From: Methanocaldococcus sp. 28A
GTDB taxonomy: Archaea > AGJL01 > Methanococci > Methanococcales > Methanocaldococcaceae
Strand: one strand, 5' to 3'
DNA: 64,000 bases
Assembly (NCBI GenBank): GCA_049852185.1
Contig: CP187540.1
The notes beneath the pieces were generated by a model that made no database searches, had not been told where the DNA came from, and worked only from the letters and a program-made list of their open reading frames with translations. A program made the translations under genes and the position numbers. Shown in pieces: positions 1,941-58,382 of this stretch (positions are counted from its first letter, which is position 1; each line of letters starts with the position of its first letter).

Positions 1941-2219
1941 TTATTTAACTTCAATAGTATATTTCTTTGAAGCTTCTTTGAATATCATTGAAGAGGATGC
2001 AAATTTTAAATATAAGAGTGCTTTATCAACATCTATAACCTTTGTTGGGGCTATATGAGTTATACCAAATCCTTTAAATAAATCTGGTAAAGATTGAGCT
2101 GTAGGACCTACTAAAATCTTTAATTTGGCATTTTTAGCCCTATCTAAAACAAAATCTAATGTATCGTTTAATAATGATGTTCCACTTATAAATACGGCAG
2201 TTTCCTTAAAATAGAACAT
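1941..2219 (-). pseudogene. C-terminal fragment of a DUF364-like Rossmann-fold protein
   Basis: ISGTSLLNDTLD...ILVGPTA motif typical of DUF364; N-terminal part absent. Confidence 0.65.
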
Positions 2220-2242
2220 ACAAACAAAATATTATAAAGTGA

Positions 2243-2408
2243 TAGTTCCGATATGTGGAGGAAATTAAGCCCGAATAGGGCTACTATTAAGCTTAAGATG
2301 TGGGGAGTTTCCGTTCCTTCTGATTACCAACCGATGACGTTGGAAGGCTGGAAGGTTATCTTCTACAATCGTTTCAATTGTTCCAAAAATAGCGGAGAAT
2401 CAGAACGG
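2243..2408 (+). ncRNA. Structured GC-rich RNA, HgcC/TnpB omegaRNA-like, copy 1
   Basis: Highly similar to the reverse complement of 56176-56345. Carries the KMWGV-type tnpB 3'-end reading frame and ends in CAGAACGG. Confidence 0.55.
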
Positions 2409-6137: not shown

Positions 6138-6171
6138 CAGATAAAATTATTTTGTTGTACGTAAAAACCTA

Positions 6172-6240
6172 CCCTCATATCTTTGGCTTAATAACAATCC
6201 CCTTCGGGCTTCTTATTTGTCTATATATCGGGACTACCAC
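6172..6240 (-). ncRNA. Truncated third copy (5' domain) of the HgcC/omegaRNA-like RNA
   Basis: Minus strand GGTAGTCCCGATAT...AAGCCCGAAGGGGATTGTTATTAAGCCAAAGATATG aligns with the 5' part of the other two copies. Confidence 0.45.
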
Positions 6241-6484
6241 ATTATAGACATAATGTTTATATTGTATAGACAATCTACGAATATGCATTAGACATACCCA
6301 ACCGAGTATTACGAATTTCCATGATTGAATAATCGAACTCCTCTAACAACTTATATATTTCGACGGATGAAGAATTTTAAAGAAATATTTATTACGAATT
6401 TTAATACAAAAGTTATGAATAACATCTCTAGGCATAAAAAGGAACAACCTAACTTTTAAAGAGGTTGATTTCGTTTTAATAGTT

Positions 6485-40305: not shown

Positions 40306-40595
40306 GGGGTTCTCCCAACGTGGTCATATATAGACAATTATAGACATTTAGGAAATTTTAATTAGATATTTTCCGTTATAATTGACTTTATAGACCATCA
40401 GAGGGAAATCTGCGATTTGAACAAAATCCTTCGGATTTTGTAGCTCGAACCTTCGGTTCGATTCCCTTACTGGAAGCTTCGCTTCCACGTTGGGATTGAG
40501 CGTCATCAGTTTCCCAAGGAAAACCTCTGCCCCTGTCGTGGACATAAAAACCTTACGGTTTTTAAGTTCTCGTCGCTTCGCTCCGAGATAACCCC
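40306..40595. ncRNA. Large multi-hairpin structured element (candidate ncRNA or IS200/605-related end)
   Basis: GGGGTT/AACCCC closing ends, 11-bp long-range TCCCAACGTGG/CCACGTTGGGA pairing, several TTCG-loop hairpins. Confidence 0.5.
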
Positions 40596-49927: not shown

Positions 49928-50174
49928 ATTAAAATAAGACCGATTCGGTATGGAAACATATTTCATTTCTTCCTCTTCTTTTTTTTTTCTTTTATTAAAA
50001 TAAGACCGATTCGGTATGGAAACTTATTTCGTATGCCACATATAAGGCAATCAACCCGTTAATATTACATTAAAATAAGACCGATTCGGTATGGAAACAT
50101 CACAATATTCAACAATGCATACTTTTTAACAATAATGAACTACAATTAAAATAAGACCGATTCGGTATGGAAAC
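49928..50174 (+). CRISPR. CRISPR array 2: four 30-nt repeats, three spacers (36, 45, 46 nt)
   Basis: ATTAAAATAAGACCGATTCGGTATGGAAAC at 49928, 49994, 50069 and 50145. Confidence 0.96.
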
Positions 50175-53300: not shown

Positions 53301-55202
53301 TTTATAAAAAAATTGGCAATGGATGTTAAAGAAGGAGATTTAATTCTTATCCCAAAGATTGATTTTGAAGAGAAAGATATAGAAGAGTTTGACTTATTAA
53401 AAGAGTTTTCAAAGGTAGAGTTTAAAGAGCTATGGAGCGTTTTAAGAGTTAGGGGCATTAAAGATTGGATTAAAGAGAATATAAGCAAAGAGTTAATTAG
53501 AGAGTTAAAATTGAATGATTATTTAAGGTATGATACAATACCGTTGGATAAACTAATGATATTATTGGAAAAATCAAATGTAACAATAGATGATGTTCCA
53601 AAGGATTGCTATATAGCAGTTAGAAGAGATAAGGTAAATATTAAAAGAATGATTAAAATTGAGCCGTTATTAAAGCTTATTGGCTACTATCTCTCTGAGG
53701 GATATGCAAGGGAATCAAAGAGTGTATATCAAATAAACTTCTCAGCCCATGAAGAGGAACTTAGAGAGAACATTAAAAAAGCAATAAAAGAGGCATTTGG
53801 AGATGTAAATATCTATGAAAATAAAGAAGATGGAAAAATAACATTATCATCAAGAGTTGTTTATTTATTCTTTACAAAGGTTTTAAAAATTGGTAAAAAG
53901 GCAAAATCAAAGAGAGTTCCAAGTTTTATCTTTAATTTACCAAAGGAAAAAGTAAGATTAATGCTATCAGCATATTTTGATGGAGATGGAACTGCGTTAA
54001 CAACTACTCCAAGAGTTGCAGTATATAGTGCTAATAAAAAATTGTTGGAAGATATAGATTTATTATTGAATAGATTTGGAATTAAAACATACTGGACTGT
54101 AGAAGAAAATGCAAATGAAAGAGATGAAAGCTGTGTAAAGAAATATTATGAAGAGAGAGGAAAAGAAGTTCCAAAATCCATTGTTTATGCTTTAAATATA
54201 GCAGGACATTATTATGACATATTCTTTAAAGAAATTGGTTTTTTCTTGAATAGAAAGCAGGAGATTTATAAATTACATAAAAATAGGATAATAAAAGATG
54301 ATGTGACAGCATATAAATTTGGTTGGATTGTAGGAGTCAAAAAAACTGAACTAATAAAATCTGAGGATAAATTTATCTATTCATTAAATGCGAAGAAGTA
54401 TCACAATGTAATAATAAATGAAAATATTCAAACATATCAATGTGATGGCGACGAAGATGCCTTCTTTTTGCTTTTAGACGCATTTTTGAACTTTTCTAAG
54501 AAATTCCTGCCTGATAAAAGAGGAGGGCAAATGGACGCTCCATTAGTATTAACAACCATATTGGACCCAAAGGAAGTGGATGGAGAAGTTCATAATATGG
54601 ATGTTGTTTGGAGTTATCCATTAGAGTTTTATGAAAAAACATTAGAAATGCCTTCACCAAAAGAAGTTAAAGAATTAATAGAGACAGTAGAGGATAGATT
54701 AGGAAAACCAGAGCAGTATGAGGGATTAGGCTATACTCATGAAACAAGTAGAATTGATTTAGGACCAAAAGTTTGTGCATATAAAACCTTAGGTTCAATG
54801 CTTGAAAAAACAAATGCTCAACTTTCAGTAGCTAAAAAGATTAGAGCAACAGATGAGAGAGATGTTGCTGAGAAGGTCATACAATCTCACTTCATACCAG
54901 ATTTAATTGGAAATTTAAGAGCTTTCTCAAGACAAGCGGTAAGATGTAAATGTGGGGCTAAGTATAGAAGAATTCCTTTAAGAGGAGTTTGTCCAAAGTG
55001 TGGTTCTAAGTTAATATTAACTGTATCAAAAGGAGCTGTTGAAAAGTATATGGATGTTGCAGAGAAGATGGCTGAGGAATACAATGTAAATGATTATATA
55101 AAACAAAGATTAAAAATTATTAGAGAGGGAATAAATTCAATATTTGAAAATGATAAAAGTAAGCAAGTTAAATTAAGTGATTTCTTTAAAATAAATTCTT
55201 AA
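50328..55202 (+). CDS. polC: DNA polymerase D large subunit DP2, with intein
   Basis: [34 protein letters not shown] and C-terminal Zn fingers. Confidence 0.97.
52989..54440 (+). mobile_element. 484-aa intein with LAGLIDADG homing endonuclease in polC
   Basis: Starts CFPGDT; block B TTHDHP; LAGLIDADG boxes LIGYYLSEG and LSAYFDGDG; ends IQTYQ before Cys+1. Confidence 0.95.
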
Positions 55203-55231
55203 AGTTTATTTTATTTGCATAAAACTATATT

Positions 55232-56122
55232 TTGGGGATTATTATGGAAGTAATTCCATTAGCATCTGAAAGCTTAGGAGTTAGGTCATTGGCAACCTAT
55301 GTTAAAACAAAGGATGTGGGGATTTTAATAGACCCTGGTGTTGCTTTAGCCCCAGATAGATTTGGTTTAAAACCAAATGATATAGAATTTAAAAAATTAA
55401 AAGAACTGAGAAATAAAATCAATGAGTATGCAAAAAAAAGTGATATTATAATTATTTCTCATTATCATTACGACCATTATACACCATTTTTTGATGACAT
55501 ATACTTAGAGTCAAAGGATTATGCCAAAGAACTATACAAGAACAAAATATTACTAATAAAGCATCCAACTGAATTTATAAATAAAAGTCAGATGGAGAGA
55601 GCAAAAAAATTTTTGGAACATGTTAAAAATATTGCAAAAAAGATAGAATTTGCAGACAACAAAACATTTAAATTTGGAAAGACAGAGATAAAATTTTCCC
55701 CACCATTTCCACATGGAAGAGATAACAAGTTAGGATATGTTTTAATAACAACAATTAAAGAAGGTAATTTTAAGTTTATGCACACTTCAGACACTCAAGG
55801 AATATTATTTGATGAGATTAGGGATTATATAATTAAAGAAAAACCAAATCTAATACTTATAGGAGGTCCTCCTACATATTTAATGCATAGATACGGAAAA
55901 AAGAACTTAGAAAAAACCAACGAAAATTTAAAATATATAGTGGAAAATACTGGAGCTGAGATTATAATTGACCATCACTTATTAAGAGATAAAAAGTTTA
56001 GAGAAAAGATAAATATTGATTTCAAAACAGTTGCTGAGTTTTTAGGAGAAAAGAATCTGTTATTGGAAGCATATAGAAAAGAGATTAAGCATGGAAAATG
56101 TTTAGAGGAATTATTTAAATAA
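55232..56122 (+). CDS. UPF0282 metallo-beta-lactamase-fold hydrolase
   Basis: ESLGVRS, SHYHYDH and DHHLLRD motifs. Confidence 0.88.
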   Translation: MGIIMEVIPLASESLGVRSLATYVKTKDVGILIDPGVALAPDRFGLKPNDIEFKKLKELRNKINEYAKKSDIIIISHYHYDHYTPFFDDIYLESKDYAKELYKNKILLIKHPTEFINKSQMERAKKFLEHVKNIAKKIEFADNKTFKFGKTEIKFSPPFPHGRDNKLGYVLITTIKEGNFKFMHTSDTQGILFDEIRDYIIKEKPNLILIGGPPTYLMHRYGKKNLEKTNENLKYIVENTGAEIIIDHHLLRDKKFREKINIDFKTVAEFLGEKNLLLEAYRKEIKHGKCLEELFK

Positions 56123-56156
56123 TTCATAAAAATATATAAAATTTTGAAGAAATAAA

Positions 56157-56346
56157 GCCTCAATGATGAAAGTTACCGTTCTGGTTATCCGCTACTTTTG
56201 GAACAATTGAAACAATTGTAGCAGATAACCTTCCAGCCTCCTAATTTCATCGGCTGGCAATCGGGGGGAACGGGAACTCCCCACATCTTCGGATTAATAG
56301 CAGTCCCATTCGGGCTTAGTTTCCCCCACATATCGGGACCGCTATA
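56157..56346 (-). ncRNA. HgcC/omegaRNA-like structured RNA, copy 2, with putative 19-nt 3' guide
   Basis: Stems ATAGCGGTCCC/GGGACTGCTAT, GGTTATCTGCTAC/GTAGCGGATAACC and CCGTTC/GAACGG; TATA-like TTTTAAATA upstream on the minus strand. Confidence 0.6.
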
Positions 56347-56387
56347 TTACAATCTTGTGGTTGTAGTATTTAAAATTTGTTGTAATC

Positions 56388-56460
56388 AATGCCTCGATGA
56401 TGAAAGTTACCCCCACCGACCTTTTTGGGATGAAGAAATCGGCACTGACTGAGAGGCATT
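56388..56460 (+). ncRNA. C/D-box guide sRNA, probably targeting 23S rRNA domain IV
   Basis: Stem AATGCCTC/GAGGCATT; C box ATGATGA, D' CCGA, C' GGATGA, D CTGA. Guides AGTTACCCCC and CGGCACTG are complementary to recalled archaeal 23S segments GGGGGUAACU and CAGUGCCG. Confidence 0.85.
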
Positions 56461-56463
56461 ATT

Positions 56464-56574
56464 TATAGTTGTGTGTAAAATAAAATAAACTTTTATAATG
56501 GCAATTTGAATGCCTTCCATAAGGAAGACATTCACTAATTCCTTATTTTTAAGATAGTTTTGCACACAACTATA
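56464..56574. repeat. Palindromic repeat, family B
   Basis: TIR and central palindrome as in 3266-3379. Confidence 0.88.
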
Positions 56575-56595
56575 GTCTATATTAATTCTATGTAA

Positions 56596-57951
56596 GTGAT
56601 TTTTATGTTTGTAGATGAGATTATAAACAATTTAAAAGAAAATGAATTCCTAAATACTTCTCTTTTGACTAAAAGTAATAAAAATAGATTATACTATGCT
56701 GTAAAACAGCCAGATGGGAATATAAAAGTTGTTTTGCCTTTTGTTTTTGAAAATAAAAATTTTTTAAAACTTTCTGAATATGGAAATGGAATAGAAGGAG
56801 CTACGCAGAGGGTTATTGAAGAAATAAAAAAAGAAATAATTAATAAAAAGAGATTTTTACCATTAGCAGGATATTTTGGTAGAATATATAAAGCTTTGTA
56901 TGAACCATTAACTGTAGTGAATTGTGATTTAAATTTGGGATATGATTTGTGGAGAGCTGACAAATATAACTATATTAAAGGAAATAAGATGTATCTAATG
57001 CTCAGAATGATTTTTAAAGAAAAAGATGCTAAAGAAATTGCTAAACAAATCAATGCGCTTTGTAATAACTTAGATAAATTTATTAAAAACATTTCAATTG
57101 ATTTATTAATTGATGAAGCTAAAAATATAATAAATCAAAAATATCTTAGGGATAAATTGGATGAACTTGGTTTAGTTTGCTTTATTGCAAATAATTCAAA
57201 GCCAGCAAGAAAATATACTGATGTTAGAAGGCATTACAGAATAGCAGGACCTAAGGAAATAAATATTCCATTTGAATGCCCAGAAGAACTTGAACCAATA
57301 GAGATAAAGCTTAAATATGGTAAGAAAATTAAAGGATTGGGTATAAAAAAGAAAGAAATATTTATAATTACTGGAAGAAATGCTCAAGGAAAAACAACTC
57401 TTTTGCAGGCAATAGATAGTGGTAGAGATGACCACTTAATTGGAGATGGGAGAGAGTTCATTATAACTACTAAAAGCCTATCCAGGGCATCAACTGGGAG
57501 TATGGAAATGAATGGACAAGATATAAGTATGTTTTTCCAAAAACTACCTCCAGGAATTAAAGGAACTCCAAAAGCTGTTTATGGAACTGCCTCAGGCTCA
57601 ATGTATATGGCTTACCAAATACAAAGGTCTATAAAAAATAAAACTAAGCTTATTTTGATAGATGAAGACAACTCAGCTGTAAATTTATTAGTTAGTGGTG
57701 TTTTAAGTAAGTGGTTTGAGGGAGTTAAGTCACTATCTGAAATAATTATAGAAAATAGAGAAAAACTTGGAGATAGCTCTTTTATTATAGTAACAAGTTC
57801 GTTGGATTTATTAACTGCTTTGGGGGATAGGGCAATTTACTTAGAAAACCATAAAGCTAAATATCTTGATTTAAATTATTTTAGAAAAGAGCTTGGGAAA
57901 TATTACTTAGAGTTAGCATCTATGTTATTGTATGGAAAATTTTCTAAATAG
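56596..57951 (+). CDS. P-loop ATPase of the ABC-class (ABC_ATPase) family
   Basis: GRNAQGKTT, GDGRE, TASGS and LIDED motifs. Confidence 0.8.
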   Translation: MIFMFVDEIINNLKENEFLNTSLLTKSNKNRLYYAVKQPDGNIKVVLPFVFENKNFLKLSEYGNGIEGATQRVIEEIKKEIINKKRFLPLAGYFGRIYKALYEPLTVVNCDLNLGYDLWRADKYNYIKGNKMYLMLRMIFKEKDAKEIAKQINALCNNLDKFIKNISIDLLIDEAKNIINQKYLRDKLDELGLVCFIANNSKPARKYTDVRRHYRIAGPKEINIPFECPEELEPIEIKLKYGKKIKGLGIKKKEIFIITGRNAQGKTTLLQAIDSGRDDHLIGDGREFIITTKSLSRASTGSMEMNGQDISMFFQKLPPGIKGTPKAVYGTASGSMYMAYQIQRSIKNKTKLILIDEDNSAVNLLVSGVLSKWFEGVKSLSEIIIENREKLGDSSFIIVTSSLDLLTALGDRAIYLENHKAKYLDLNYFRKELGKYYLELASMLLYGKFSK

Positions 57952-58382
57952 TTATACAGCACCTCCAAACATCATATAGTTATTAAAAAAATAAAATAGA
58001 GGATGATAGAATGAACGACATAAAATTGTTGGCTATAAAATCATTTAATAAATTTAACGAATTCATAAACAACACTCTATGAATTAATCCAAAGATTTAT
58101 CGAGTTGAAGATTATACAAGCCTTCCACAAGGAAAGTATTTGCTAATTCCTTATTTTAATTAAGATATAAATACTATCTTGAGGAGGAATATAAAAAAGA
58201 ATATAAAAAAAGAAGAAAAATGGGAATTCGATTTTAAATTCCAAACTAATACATAATGTGCGAAAGTCCTATTATTAGATGAGTTCGAATATTCAATCAT
58301 GGTTATGCGTAATACTCAGTCATGTATGTTTAATACATATTCGTAGATACTGTATTATTATTAAATTAAATCTGTATTATTA

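What the first reader, a model, noticed from the sequence alone, without database searches (positions are those of the whole stretch)
56157..56460. Stand-alone omegaRNA-like RNA whose 3' tail matches the adjacent C/D sRNA gene next to a G-rich motif
Seen: a structured 170-nt element on the minus strand ends in CAGAACGG at 56176, exactly where homology with copy 1 (2408) stops. It is followed by TAACTTTCATCATTGAGGC and then a T-rich run. The same sequence recurs at 56391-56409 with 18/19 identity (first 13 nt perfect, mismatch at position 14). That site is the 5' end and C box of a divergently transcribed C/D sRNA, and on the same strand it is preceded by TGGGGG. Known: TnpB omegaRNAs come from the element right end and use the next ~15-20 nt as guide; IS607 elements end in GG and their TnpBs use G-rich TAMs. 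Inference: a protein-less guide RNA that points a trans-encoded TnpB, or a nuclease-dead derivative, at a host ncRNA gene about 45-65 nt upstream of its own start. That would be RNA-guided regulation or self-targeting in an archaeon. Alternative: insertion at GG in the sRNA gene with its 5' end duplicated and restored; a TATA at 56131-56140 precedes the first copy.
Basis: partly seen in the sequence, partly recalled or inferred. Interest (0 to 1): 0.85.

Follow-up and report, generated by a model that had tools for sequence, protein, structure and literature searches.

The report
Orphan transposon guide-RNA relic in sRNA gene
A protein-less remnant of a TnpB transposon, keeping only its promoter and guide-RNA scaffold, landed inside a small methylation-guide RNA gene, and its match to that gene is a leftover of the insertion rather than a regulatory design.

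Summary
A structured 170-nt element on the minus strand (56176-56345) ends in CAGAACGG. It is flanked by an 18/19 direct repeat, 56157-56175 and 56391-56409. The second copy is the 5' end of a C/D box sRNA and abuts GGGGG on the element's strand.

The element is a true TnpB omegaRNA scaffold. In two other Methanococcales genomes the same sequence forms the 3' end of a 404-408 aa tnpB, and copies end at one fixed boundary followed by unrelated flanks. Left-end flanks read NGGG, matching the published IS607 TGGG motif.

The closest relative has an empty site, with an uninterrupted sRNA gene behind the same promoter. So the repeat is a target duplication made when a left-end-less copy entered the sRNA gene. 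The guide-target match follows from that.

This genome has no cognate tnpB (best 30% identity), no tnpB carrying this scaffold and no serine transposase. Only 1 of 17 genus genomes carries the insertion. I read it as an orphan relic (0.8). RNA-guided regulation is unsupported (about 0.05).

One twist is worth noting. A second independent left-end-less copy, at the ilvE 3' end in two relatives, shows the same "G-rich motif, target copy, element, target" layout.

The parts
56176..56345 (-). omegaRNA-type scaffold of a protein-less IS607/IS1341-type TnpB element (copy 'c216'); right end ...CCAGAACGG at 56176
   Evidence: Covariance model R1 hit at 56171-56346(-), 197.8 bits. Homologous to the 3' end of tnpB in G038 L027. 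Five helices, 10 of 29 pairs with compensatory change.
56346..56390 (-). Remnant of the element's left part with its own TATA-like box (minus-strand AAATTTTAAATA, 56378->56367), about 24 nt before the scaffold. The outer left end (GG|C.GTTTCCTTAAA...) is missing. The outermost 12 nt (56379-56390) are of unclear origin.
   Evidence: Alignment with full copies that share the TTTTAAATA block. The left-end motif is absent from this copy.
56157..56175 (+). Repeat A: relic copy of the sRNA 5' end, still behind the ancestral sRNA promoter. On the minus strand it is the would-be 19-nt guide following the scaffold.
   Evidence: Collinear with the G014 empty site up to GTTACC. Pattern search.
56391..56409 (+). 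Repeat B: 5' end (terminal stem half, C box, first bases of the D' guide) of the intact sRNA; 18/19 identical to repeat A
56410..56414 (-). GGGGG on the minus strand: G-rich transposon-adjacent-motif-like run next to repeat B. It is part of the conserved D' guide of the sRNA and marks the original GG insertion point.
   Evidence: GTTACCCCCAC is conserved in the 16 orthologues shown intact. Left-end flanks read NGGG in 12 of 13 other copies.
56391..56460 (+). C/D box sRNA gene (host gene that was hit)
   Evidence: Boxes read. Matches in 17 of 17 genus genomes. The D' guide is complementary to a 10-nt site present twice in the genome, in a context I recognise as 23S rRNA (recalled identification).
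56128..56141 (+). Ancestral sRNA promoter (A/T-rich TATA-like run), now separated from the sRNA by the insertion
   Evidence: Identical arrangement directly upstream of the sRNA in G014. Promoter function is inferred.
2196..2408 (+). Window copy 1 ('c162'): complete 213-bp protein-less element with left end GG|CAGTTTCCTTAAA and right end ...CAGAACGG
   Evidence: R1 166.1 bits.
6150..6266 (-). Fragment of the same element family
   Evidence: nhmmer hit at genome 166173-166266, E = 1.9e-11. R1 hit at genome 166150-166241, 33.6 bits.

Best explanation
The element is an orphan, left-end-less derivative of a tnpB-only IS607/IS1341-type insertion sequence. It keeps the internal promoter and the omegaRNA scaffold, which corresponds to the last ~250 nt of tnpB minus an 86-nt internal deletion.

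It entered a conserved C/D box sRNA gene at a GG within GGGGG|TAAC, inside the D' guide. This happened after the split from the closest relative. The event, or a follow-up rearrangement, duplicated the 19 nt of the sRNA gene that lie between the insertion point and the sRNA 5' end. As a result a complete sRNA gene persists on one side (56391-56460). A 19-nt relic stays behind the old promoter on the other side (56157-56175).

In this transposon class the guide is simply whatever follows the right end. The would-be guide therefore matches the restored sRNA 5' end automatically.

The genome has no cognate TnpB and no serine transposase. The RNA, if made, most likely has no protein partner, and the locus is a decaying fossil.

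Shown: homology, element boundaries, the empty site, and absence of the cognate genes. Inferred: transcription from the TATA box, how the duplication arose, and inertness.
For: 1. Parent element. In G038 (L027) a 404-aa tnpB (PF07282, 77.1 bits) runs into the same scaffold and ends ...CCAGAACGG. G007 has an 85%-identical tnpB.
2. Fixed end. In 19 of 21 loci checked the right end was found and was followed by unrelated sequence.
3. Structure. 93.9% of cells pair, 10 of 29 pairs change on both sides, and 0 of 500 shuffles reach this.
4. IS607 signature. 12 of 13 left-end flanks read NGGG and 5 of 13 read TGGG. Published work reports GG targets, a TGGG TAM and a scaffold ending UCGG (passages read).
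5. Empty site. G014 has an uninterrupted sRNA directly behind the same promoter. The sRNA is present in 17 of 17 genus genomes and the insertion in 1 of 17.
6. No general target duplication. Only 2 of 34 right-end-bearing copies repeat 9 nt or more of their 3' flank upstream.
7. Orphan status. The best tnpB in G000 is 30.5% identical. nhmmer and model R1 find 9 places or fragments in G000, none at a tnpB locus. There is no Resolvase-domain gene in G000, while 5 of 5 other carrier genomes tested have one. A cognate tnpB (E <= 1e-40) occurs in 3 of 40 Methanococcales genomes, against 14 of 40 with the element.
Against: - The promoter block and all five helices are intact in this copy, so the RNA could still be made and folded.
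- Site B keeps a G-rich adjacent motif and 13 perfect motif-proximal bases. A compatible TnpB would probably recognise it.
- G000 encodes at least one TnpB with intact-looking RuvC motifs (genome 448849-450177) that is distantly related to the parent (30% identity). Cross-use of the scaffold was not tested.
- Standalone omegaRNAs have been reported to work in trans (passage read).
- How a 19-nt duplication and loss of the left end arise is not explained by known IS607 chemistry, which makes no duplications.
- No expression data could be obtained.
Confidence: 0.8

Rival explanations
1. First reader's preferred reading. The protein-less RNA is a working guide that directs a trans-encoded TnpB, or a nuclease-dead relative, to the sRNA gene 45-65 nt upstream of its own start, giving RNA-guided repression or self-targeting.
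For: - Intact promoter-like box and scaffold.
- An 18/19 match next to GGGG, fitting the NGGG flanks of the family and the published IS607 TGGG TAM.
- Standalone omegaRNAs can act in trans with compatible effectors (passage).
- G000 encodes several TnpB homologues. Two of them have NRQ where the parent has DRD in RuvC-III.
Against: - The match is a by-product of insertion and duplication, given the empty site in G014.
- The insertion is in 1 of 17 genus genomes.
- No G000 tnpB is closer than 30.5% to the parent, and none carries this scaffold.
- The NRQ TnpBs belong to a different family, with their own dispersed 3'-end fragments.
- Cleavage at this site would cut the chromosome inside a conserved gene.
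Confidence: 0.05
2. TnpB-independent antisense RNA. The 3' tail of the element's transcript pairs with the first 19 nt of the mature sRNA (terminal stem, C box, start of the D' guide) and modulates its assembly or stability.
For: The tail is complementary to the sRNA 5' end. The single DNA difference (A/G at sRNA position 6) becomes a G-U wobble, so all 19 positions can pair (read). Transcription units are divergent and the old promoter reads into the element antisense (inference).
Against: - The complementarity is again a direct consequence of the duplication.
- It is not conserved in any other genome.
- There are no expression data.
- C/D sRNA 5' ends are normally buried in the ribonucleoprotein (general knowledge, recalled).
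Confidence: 0.05
3. The 19-bp repeat is an ordinary target-site duplication made by the family's transposase at every insertion.
For: Direct repeats flank the inserted DNA exactly.
Against: - 32 of 34 right-end-bearing copies have no flank repeat of 9 nt or more.
- Full copies abut GG on both sides without duplication.
- IS607-family elements are reported to make no duplications (passage).
- This copy lacks a left end altogether.
Confidence: 0.03

Closest known systems
Standalone omegaRNAs and PATE-like protein-less IS200/IS605-IS607 derivatives (described in passages of PMC10691335 and PMC10055086)
   Same: Mobilised, protein-less copies that keep the transposon end encoding the guide-RNA scaffold. 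The guide is the flanking DNA. They would need a TnpB supplied in trans.
   Different: The published cases sit in genomes that also hold compatible effectors. Here the cognate tnpB is absent from the genome, and from 11 of the 14 Methanococcales genomes that carry the element. This copy also lacks the left end and is flanked by a 19-nt target duplication.
IS607-family TnpB systems, e.g. the Clostridium botulinum IStron (PMC10690162, passages) and IS607 transposition (PMC6188088, passages)
   Same: GG at both element ends and at the target. A G-rich adjacent motif (published TGGG; here NGGG in 12 of 13 copies). The scaffold ends in NCGG (published UCGG; here ACGG). No target duplication in normal copies.
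   Different: Archaeal, tnpB-only parent. No group I intron. Linkage to a serine TnpA is not shown. TAM not measured.
TldR, TnpB-like nuclease-dead repressors (PMC10705468; abstract seen in a search listing only)
   Same: The idea that a TnpB-type guide RNA can target a host promoter or gene for regulation.
   Different: TldR loci pair a conserved dead TnpB with a conserved guide and target. Here there is no cognate protein, no conservation across species, and a match produced by insertion.
HgcC RNA (Rfam RF00062)
   Different: No match to the element at gathering or permissive thresholds. The only weak genome hit (24.8 bits, cut-off 50) lies elsewhere.

Membership tests
TnpB omegaRNA (OMEGA guide RNA) | Encoded at, and overlapping, the 3' end of tnpB in the parent element | tested here: met
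   Met for the family: G038 L027 tnpB 403-1617 runs into the scaffold, and also G007. At this locus no tnpB is present.
TnpB omegaRNA (OMEGA guide RNA) | Scaffold stops at the transposon right end and is followed by locus-specific sequence (the guide) | tested here: met
   In 19 of 21 loci the right end ...AGAACGG was found, each with a different flank. Alignments.
TnpB omegaRNA (OMEGA guide RNA) | Conserved secondary structure supported by covariation | tested here: met
   29 pairs in 5 helices, 10 with changes on both sides, 0 of 500 shuffles as high; slid controls pair at 31-51%. Caveat: the copies are related, and the structure could also serve at the DNA level.
TnpB omegaRNA (OMEGA guide RNA) | Transcribed and bound by TnpB; guides TAM-dependent DNA cleavage | not testable with these tools
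   No RNA run was listed. No biochemical tool is available.
IS607-family / tnpB-only (IS1341-type) insertion sequence | GG dinucleotide at both ends and at the target, (G)GG preferred, no target-site duplication | tested here: met
   Left-end flank plus core reads NGGG in 12 of 13 copies, and the right end reads ...CGG. No flank repeat in 32 of 34 copies. This copy is one of the two exceptions.
IS607-family / tnpB-only (IS1341-type) insertion sequence | Mobilised by a serine-recombinase TnpA | tested here: inconclusive
   G000 has no Resolvase domain. 5 of 5 other carrier genomes tested have one. No tnpA is adjacent to the parent copies examined. G000 has one Y1 tnpA that belongs to another element.
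MITE/PATE (protein-less element with both transposon ends) | Both left and right ends retained | tested here: not met
   Not met for this copy: the left-end motif is absent. Window copy 1 (2196-2408) and other G000 copies do have both ends.
HgcC (RF00062) | Score at or above the Rfam gathering threshold | tested here: not met
Archaeal C/D box sRNA (the target gene) | C, D', C', D boxes, terminal stem, guide complementary to rRNA | tested here: met
   Boxes and stem read. Conserved in 17 of 17 genus genomes. A 10-nt D' guide match occurs at two genome sites in a 23S-like context (the rRNA identity is recalled, not tested). Rfam hits are only sub-threshold.
TldR-like RNA-guided repression | Conserved nuclease-dead TnpB partnered with a conserved guide-target pair | tested here: not met
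   No cognate protein. The guide-target pair is present in 1 of 17 genus genomes.

The most novel reading that the evidence does not exclude
The layout [quoted passage not shown] is a natural scar of RNA-guided homing that was repaired imperfectly.

Proposed steps, in a cell with several chromosome copies:
1. The omegaRNA of a filled allele guided TnpB to cut an empty allele inside the guide-matching segment.
2. The break was repaired by copying from the filled allele inward from the right flank.
3. The ends were then joined before the left end was reached.

One step of this kind yields both the loss of the left end and a duplication that begins exactly at the motif. The duplication is 19 nt here. 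ISDra2 TnpB is reported to cut 15-21 bp from its motif.

The same layout arose independently at the ilvE 3' end in G011 and G006, with a 9-nt duplication after GTGGGG. In both cases the duplication restores the interrupted host sequence. The route would therefore also explain how such insertions in useful genes become tolerable.
Probability: 0.15. Interest if true: 0.7.

Novelty: new member of a known kind. Interest (0 to 1): 0.35.

Why it matters
As it stands this is a tidy worked example, not a new system. It shows an archaeal IS607-type TnpB family whose protein-less guide-RNA copies (14 of 40 Methanococcales genomes) are more widespread than the nuclease itself (3 of 40). It also shows how such a copy can appear to target a neighbouring host gene purely through its insertion history. 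That is a useful caution for scans that look for self-targeting guides.

The part worth a specialist's attention is the recurrent, left-end-less, target-duplicated layout at two independent loci. If it reflects TnpB cutting followed by incomplete copying, it would be sequence-level evidence for RNA-guided homing in archaea. It would also give a readout of where the nuclease cuts.

Tried and rejected
- Rfam. There is no gathering-level hit on the element. A permissive scan gave only weak C/D-type hits on the sRNA and noise on the element. HgcC does not match it.
- Expression. No RNA holder was listed for window 55200-58000. This says nothing either way.
- The bacterial promoter/terminator scan is not informative for an archaeon.
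- General target-site duplication was rejected: 2 of 34 copies show a flank repeat. An 8-nt prefix match in L032 at -355, and 7-nt matches in L027, L091 and L094, were judged chance or low-complexity.
- I considered that the junction GAGG|CATTG might be a degenerate true left end (GG|CAGTT in full copies). That would allow a serine-recombinase event at the GG inside the repeat. The resemblance is only 2-3 bases beyond sRNA-derived sequence, and the ilvE case has no GG there, so I left it open.
- I looked for the origin of the 12 nt at 56379-56390. A fuzzy regex timed out and blastn-short gave only AT-rich noise. It is unresolved.
- The 16-nt extra at the G000 ilvE site fits either a tandem duplication of motif plus target or a deletion footprint. 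I could not decide between them.
- D-guide target: no 10-mer match outside the locus other than AT-rich coding hits.
- Paper supplements were not requested. TAM logos and element tables in the supplements of PMC10690162 and PMC10055086 might refine the motif comparison.
- The polyploidy of Methanocaldococcus is recalled. I only saw a reference-list entry.

Full report
**Observation**

- On the minus strand a structured element ends ...CCAGAACGG at 56176. It is followed by a 19-nt stretch (56175->56157) and then T-rich sequence.
- The same 19 nt recur at 56391-56409 with one mismatch. In the 64-kb window the pattern has exactly these 2 matches at up to 3 mismatches. The chance expectation is 0.02, and 0 of 100 shuffles reach 2.
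- The second copy opens a 70-nt C/D box sRNA (56391-56460, + strand) with recognisable C, D', C' and D boxes and a 5-bp terminal stem.
- Rfam gives this sRNA only sub-threshold C/D hits. Matches to it are found in 17 of 17 genomes of the genus.
- On the element's strand the second copy is preceded by GGTGGGGG.
- The 190-nt RNA folds far better than shuffles (z = -5.1).

**What the element is**

G000 (1.556 Mb, 2 contigs) holds the element in 8 places by BLAST. By nhmmer and a covariance model it holds 9 places or fragments. These include window copy 1 (2196-2408) and a fragment at 6150-6266.

All copies stop at the same ...AGAACGG, and the flanks beyond are unrelated. None lies next to any of the tnpB-like loci of G000.

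Across Methanococcales the element occurs in 14 of 40 genomes. In G038 it is the 3' end of an intact 404-aa tnpB, which scores PF07282 at 77.1 bits and PF01385 below cut-off at 25.3 bits. In G007 it is the 3' end of an 85%-identical 408-aa tnpB. G005 has a 41%-identical pseudogene with three stops.

The parent element is tnpB-only. It starts GG|C.GTTTCCTTAAA and ends ...CCAGAAC|GG.

The protein-less copies consist of two parts:
- the left end, 55-110 nt, including a TATA-like TTTTAAATA block;
- the last ~165 nt of the parent, from the first zinc-finger CPICG codons to the right end, with an 86-nt internal deletion that removes the RuvC-III coding part.

The outer stem covaries between the parent and the short copies. 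In 17 aligned copies, 10 of 29 predicted pairs show changes on both sides. This is reached by 0 of 500 shuffles, and slid controls pair at only 31-51%.

Taken together, this is a genuine omegaRNA-type scaffold carried by a MITE-like derivative. It is not HgcC.

**Transposon family**

The core GG and the two bases before it at the left end read NGGG in 12 of 13 copies and TGGG in 5 of 13. The right end reads ACGG. Normal copies have no target duplication.

Passages I read report the following:
- IS607 inserts at GG, prefers (G)GG, and makes no duplication (PMC6188088).
- In a clostridial IS607-type element both the serine transposase and TnpB specify TGGG, and the scaffold ends UCGG (PMC10690162).

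**History of the locus**

The closest relative, G014, has the same upstream gene end and the same A/T-rich promoter region. These are followed directly by an uninterrupted sRNA. The other 15 genus genomes also lack the insertion.

Relative to G014, G000 carries 234 extra bases (56176-56409). These are the 215-nt element plus a second copy of the 19 nt that lie between the insertion point (GG|TAAC, inside the D' guide) and the sRNA 5' end.

Repeat A keeps the G014 base at sRNA position 6, and repeat B differs there. So the guide-target match is a target duplication.

It is not a property of the family. Only 2 of 34 right-end-bearing copies repeat 9 nt or more of their 3' flank upstream. This copy, unlike full copies, has lost the outer left end.

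**Is it functional here?**

- The best G000 match to the parent TnpB is 30.5% identical.
- Neither nhmmer nor model R1 (E up to 1) finds this scaffold at any tnpB.
- G000 has no Resolvase-domain gene, whereas 5 of 5 other carrier genomes tested have one.
- The insertion is species-specific, and the repeat has begun to diverge.

I therefore read the locus as an orphan relic.

I cannot exclude transcription, because the promoter block and helices are intact and no RNA data were available. I also cannot exclude cross-use by a distant TnpB. Standalone omegaRNAs working in trans are documented where compatible effectors exist (PMC10691335 and PMC10055086, passages).

**The unexplained part**

IS607 chemistry does not make duplications, yet this copy has one and lacks a left end. 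A second, independent case exists.

At the 3' end of ilvE in G011, a left-end-less copy starts at the same promoter block. It follows GTGGGG plus 9 nt that are repeated after the right end. G006 shares the junction, with the right half moved about 43 kb away. G010, G014 and the other genomes with an alignable ilvE end are empty at this site. In both cases the duplication restores the interrupted host sequence.

The most economical single event is a non-homologous join. One partner is an empty allele, broken 19 or 9 nt past the motif. The other is a filled allele, broken inside the element.

A break at that place is what the element's own guide would direct. ISDra2 TnpB is reported to cut 15-21 bp from its motif (PMC8612924). 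Methanocaldococcus is, from recall, polyploid. I rate this reading at about 0.15. It is inference only, and the 9-nt case needs extra resection.

**Verdict**

The identity as an omegaRNA scaffold and the G-rich motif are supported. It is a new member of a known kind, with interest 0.35.

Noticed in passing
window 56472-56576: A second, unrelated ~105-bp MITE with ~17-bp terminal inverted repeats sits just downstream of the sRNA. It is absent from G014. blastn gives 158 hit rows in G000, so it is a very abundant family. The sRNA gene is thus bracketed by two insertions.
   Followed up: partly
L023 1440-1700 (G011); L071 and L091 (G006); G000 genome C1:~242470-242520: The ilvE 3' end is a recurrent site. 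G011 and G006 carry a left-end-less copy after GTGGGG plus a 9-nt duplication. G010 is empty although it is closer to G011 than G006 is. G000 has a 16-nt extra there that looks like a tandem copy of motif plus target, or a deletion footprint.
   Followed up: partly
G000 C1:632367-633626 and C1:1519091-1520434 (outside the window); a 3'-end fragment at window ~40351-40545: Two ~90%-identical TnpB homologues have NRQ where the parent and other copies have DRD in RuvC-III, so they may be nuclease-dead or rearranged. Short pieces of their 3' ends are scattered at more than 8 genome sites, one of them in this window.
   Followed up: no
G000 C1:829713-830903: The tnpB next to the only Y1 tnpA aligns GN where the others have E(D/N) in RuvC-II. 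It is followed by a 124-aa duplicate of its own C-terminal part.
   Followed up: no
G000 contig C2 (10,393 bp): C2 is an exact 3,896-bp unit repeated 2.67 times (100% identity at a shift of 3,896). It is probably a small circular plasmid assembled as a concatemer.
   Followed up: yes
window 1941-2219 (-): A 92-aa open frame starts inside the left end of window copy 1 (its first codons are the reverse complement of the left end). In G038 the left end supplies the last codons and stop of the upstream gene. The element ends seem to be read into host frames.
   Followed up: no
window 49928-50174: A CRISPR array with four repeats matching Rfam CRISPR-DR13.
   Followed up: no
G039 (five copies; L026, L038, L047, L087, L088): Five near-identical protein-less copies occur in a genome with four 211-aa Resolvase-domain genes but no cognate tnpB (E <= 1e-40). 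This suggests recent spread of the guide-RNA cassette without its nuclease.
   Followed up: partly
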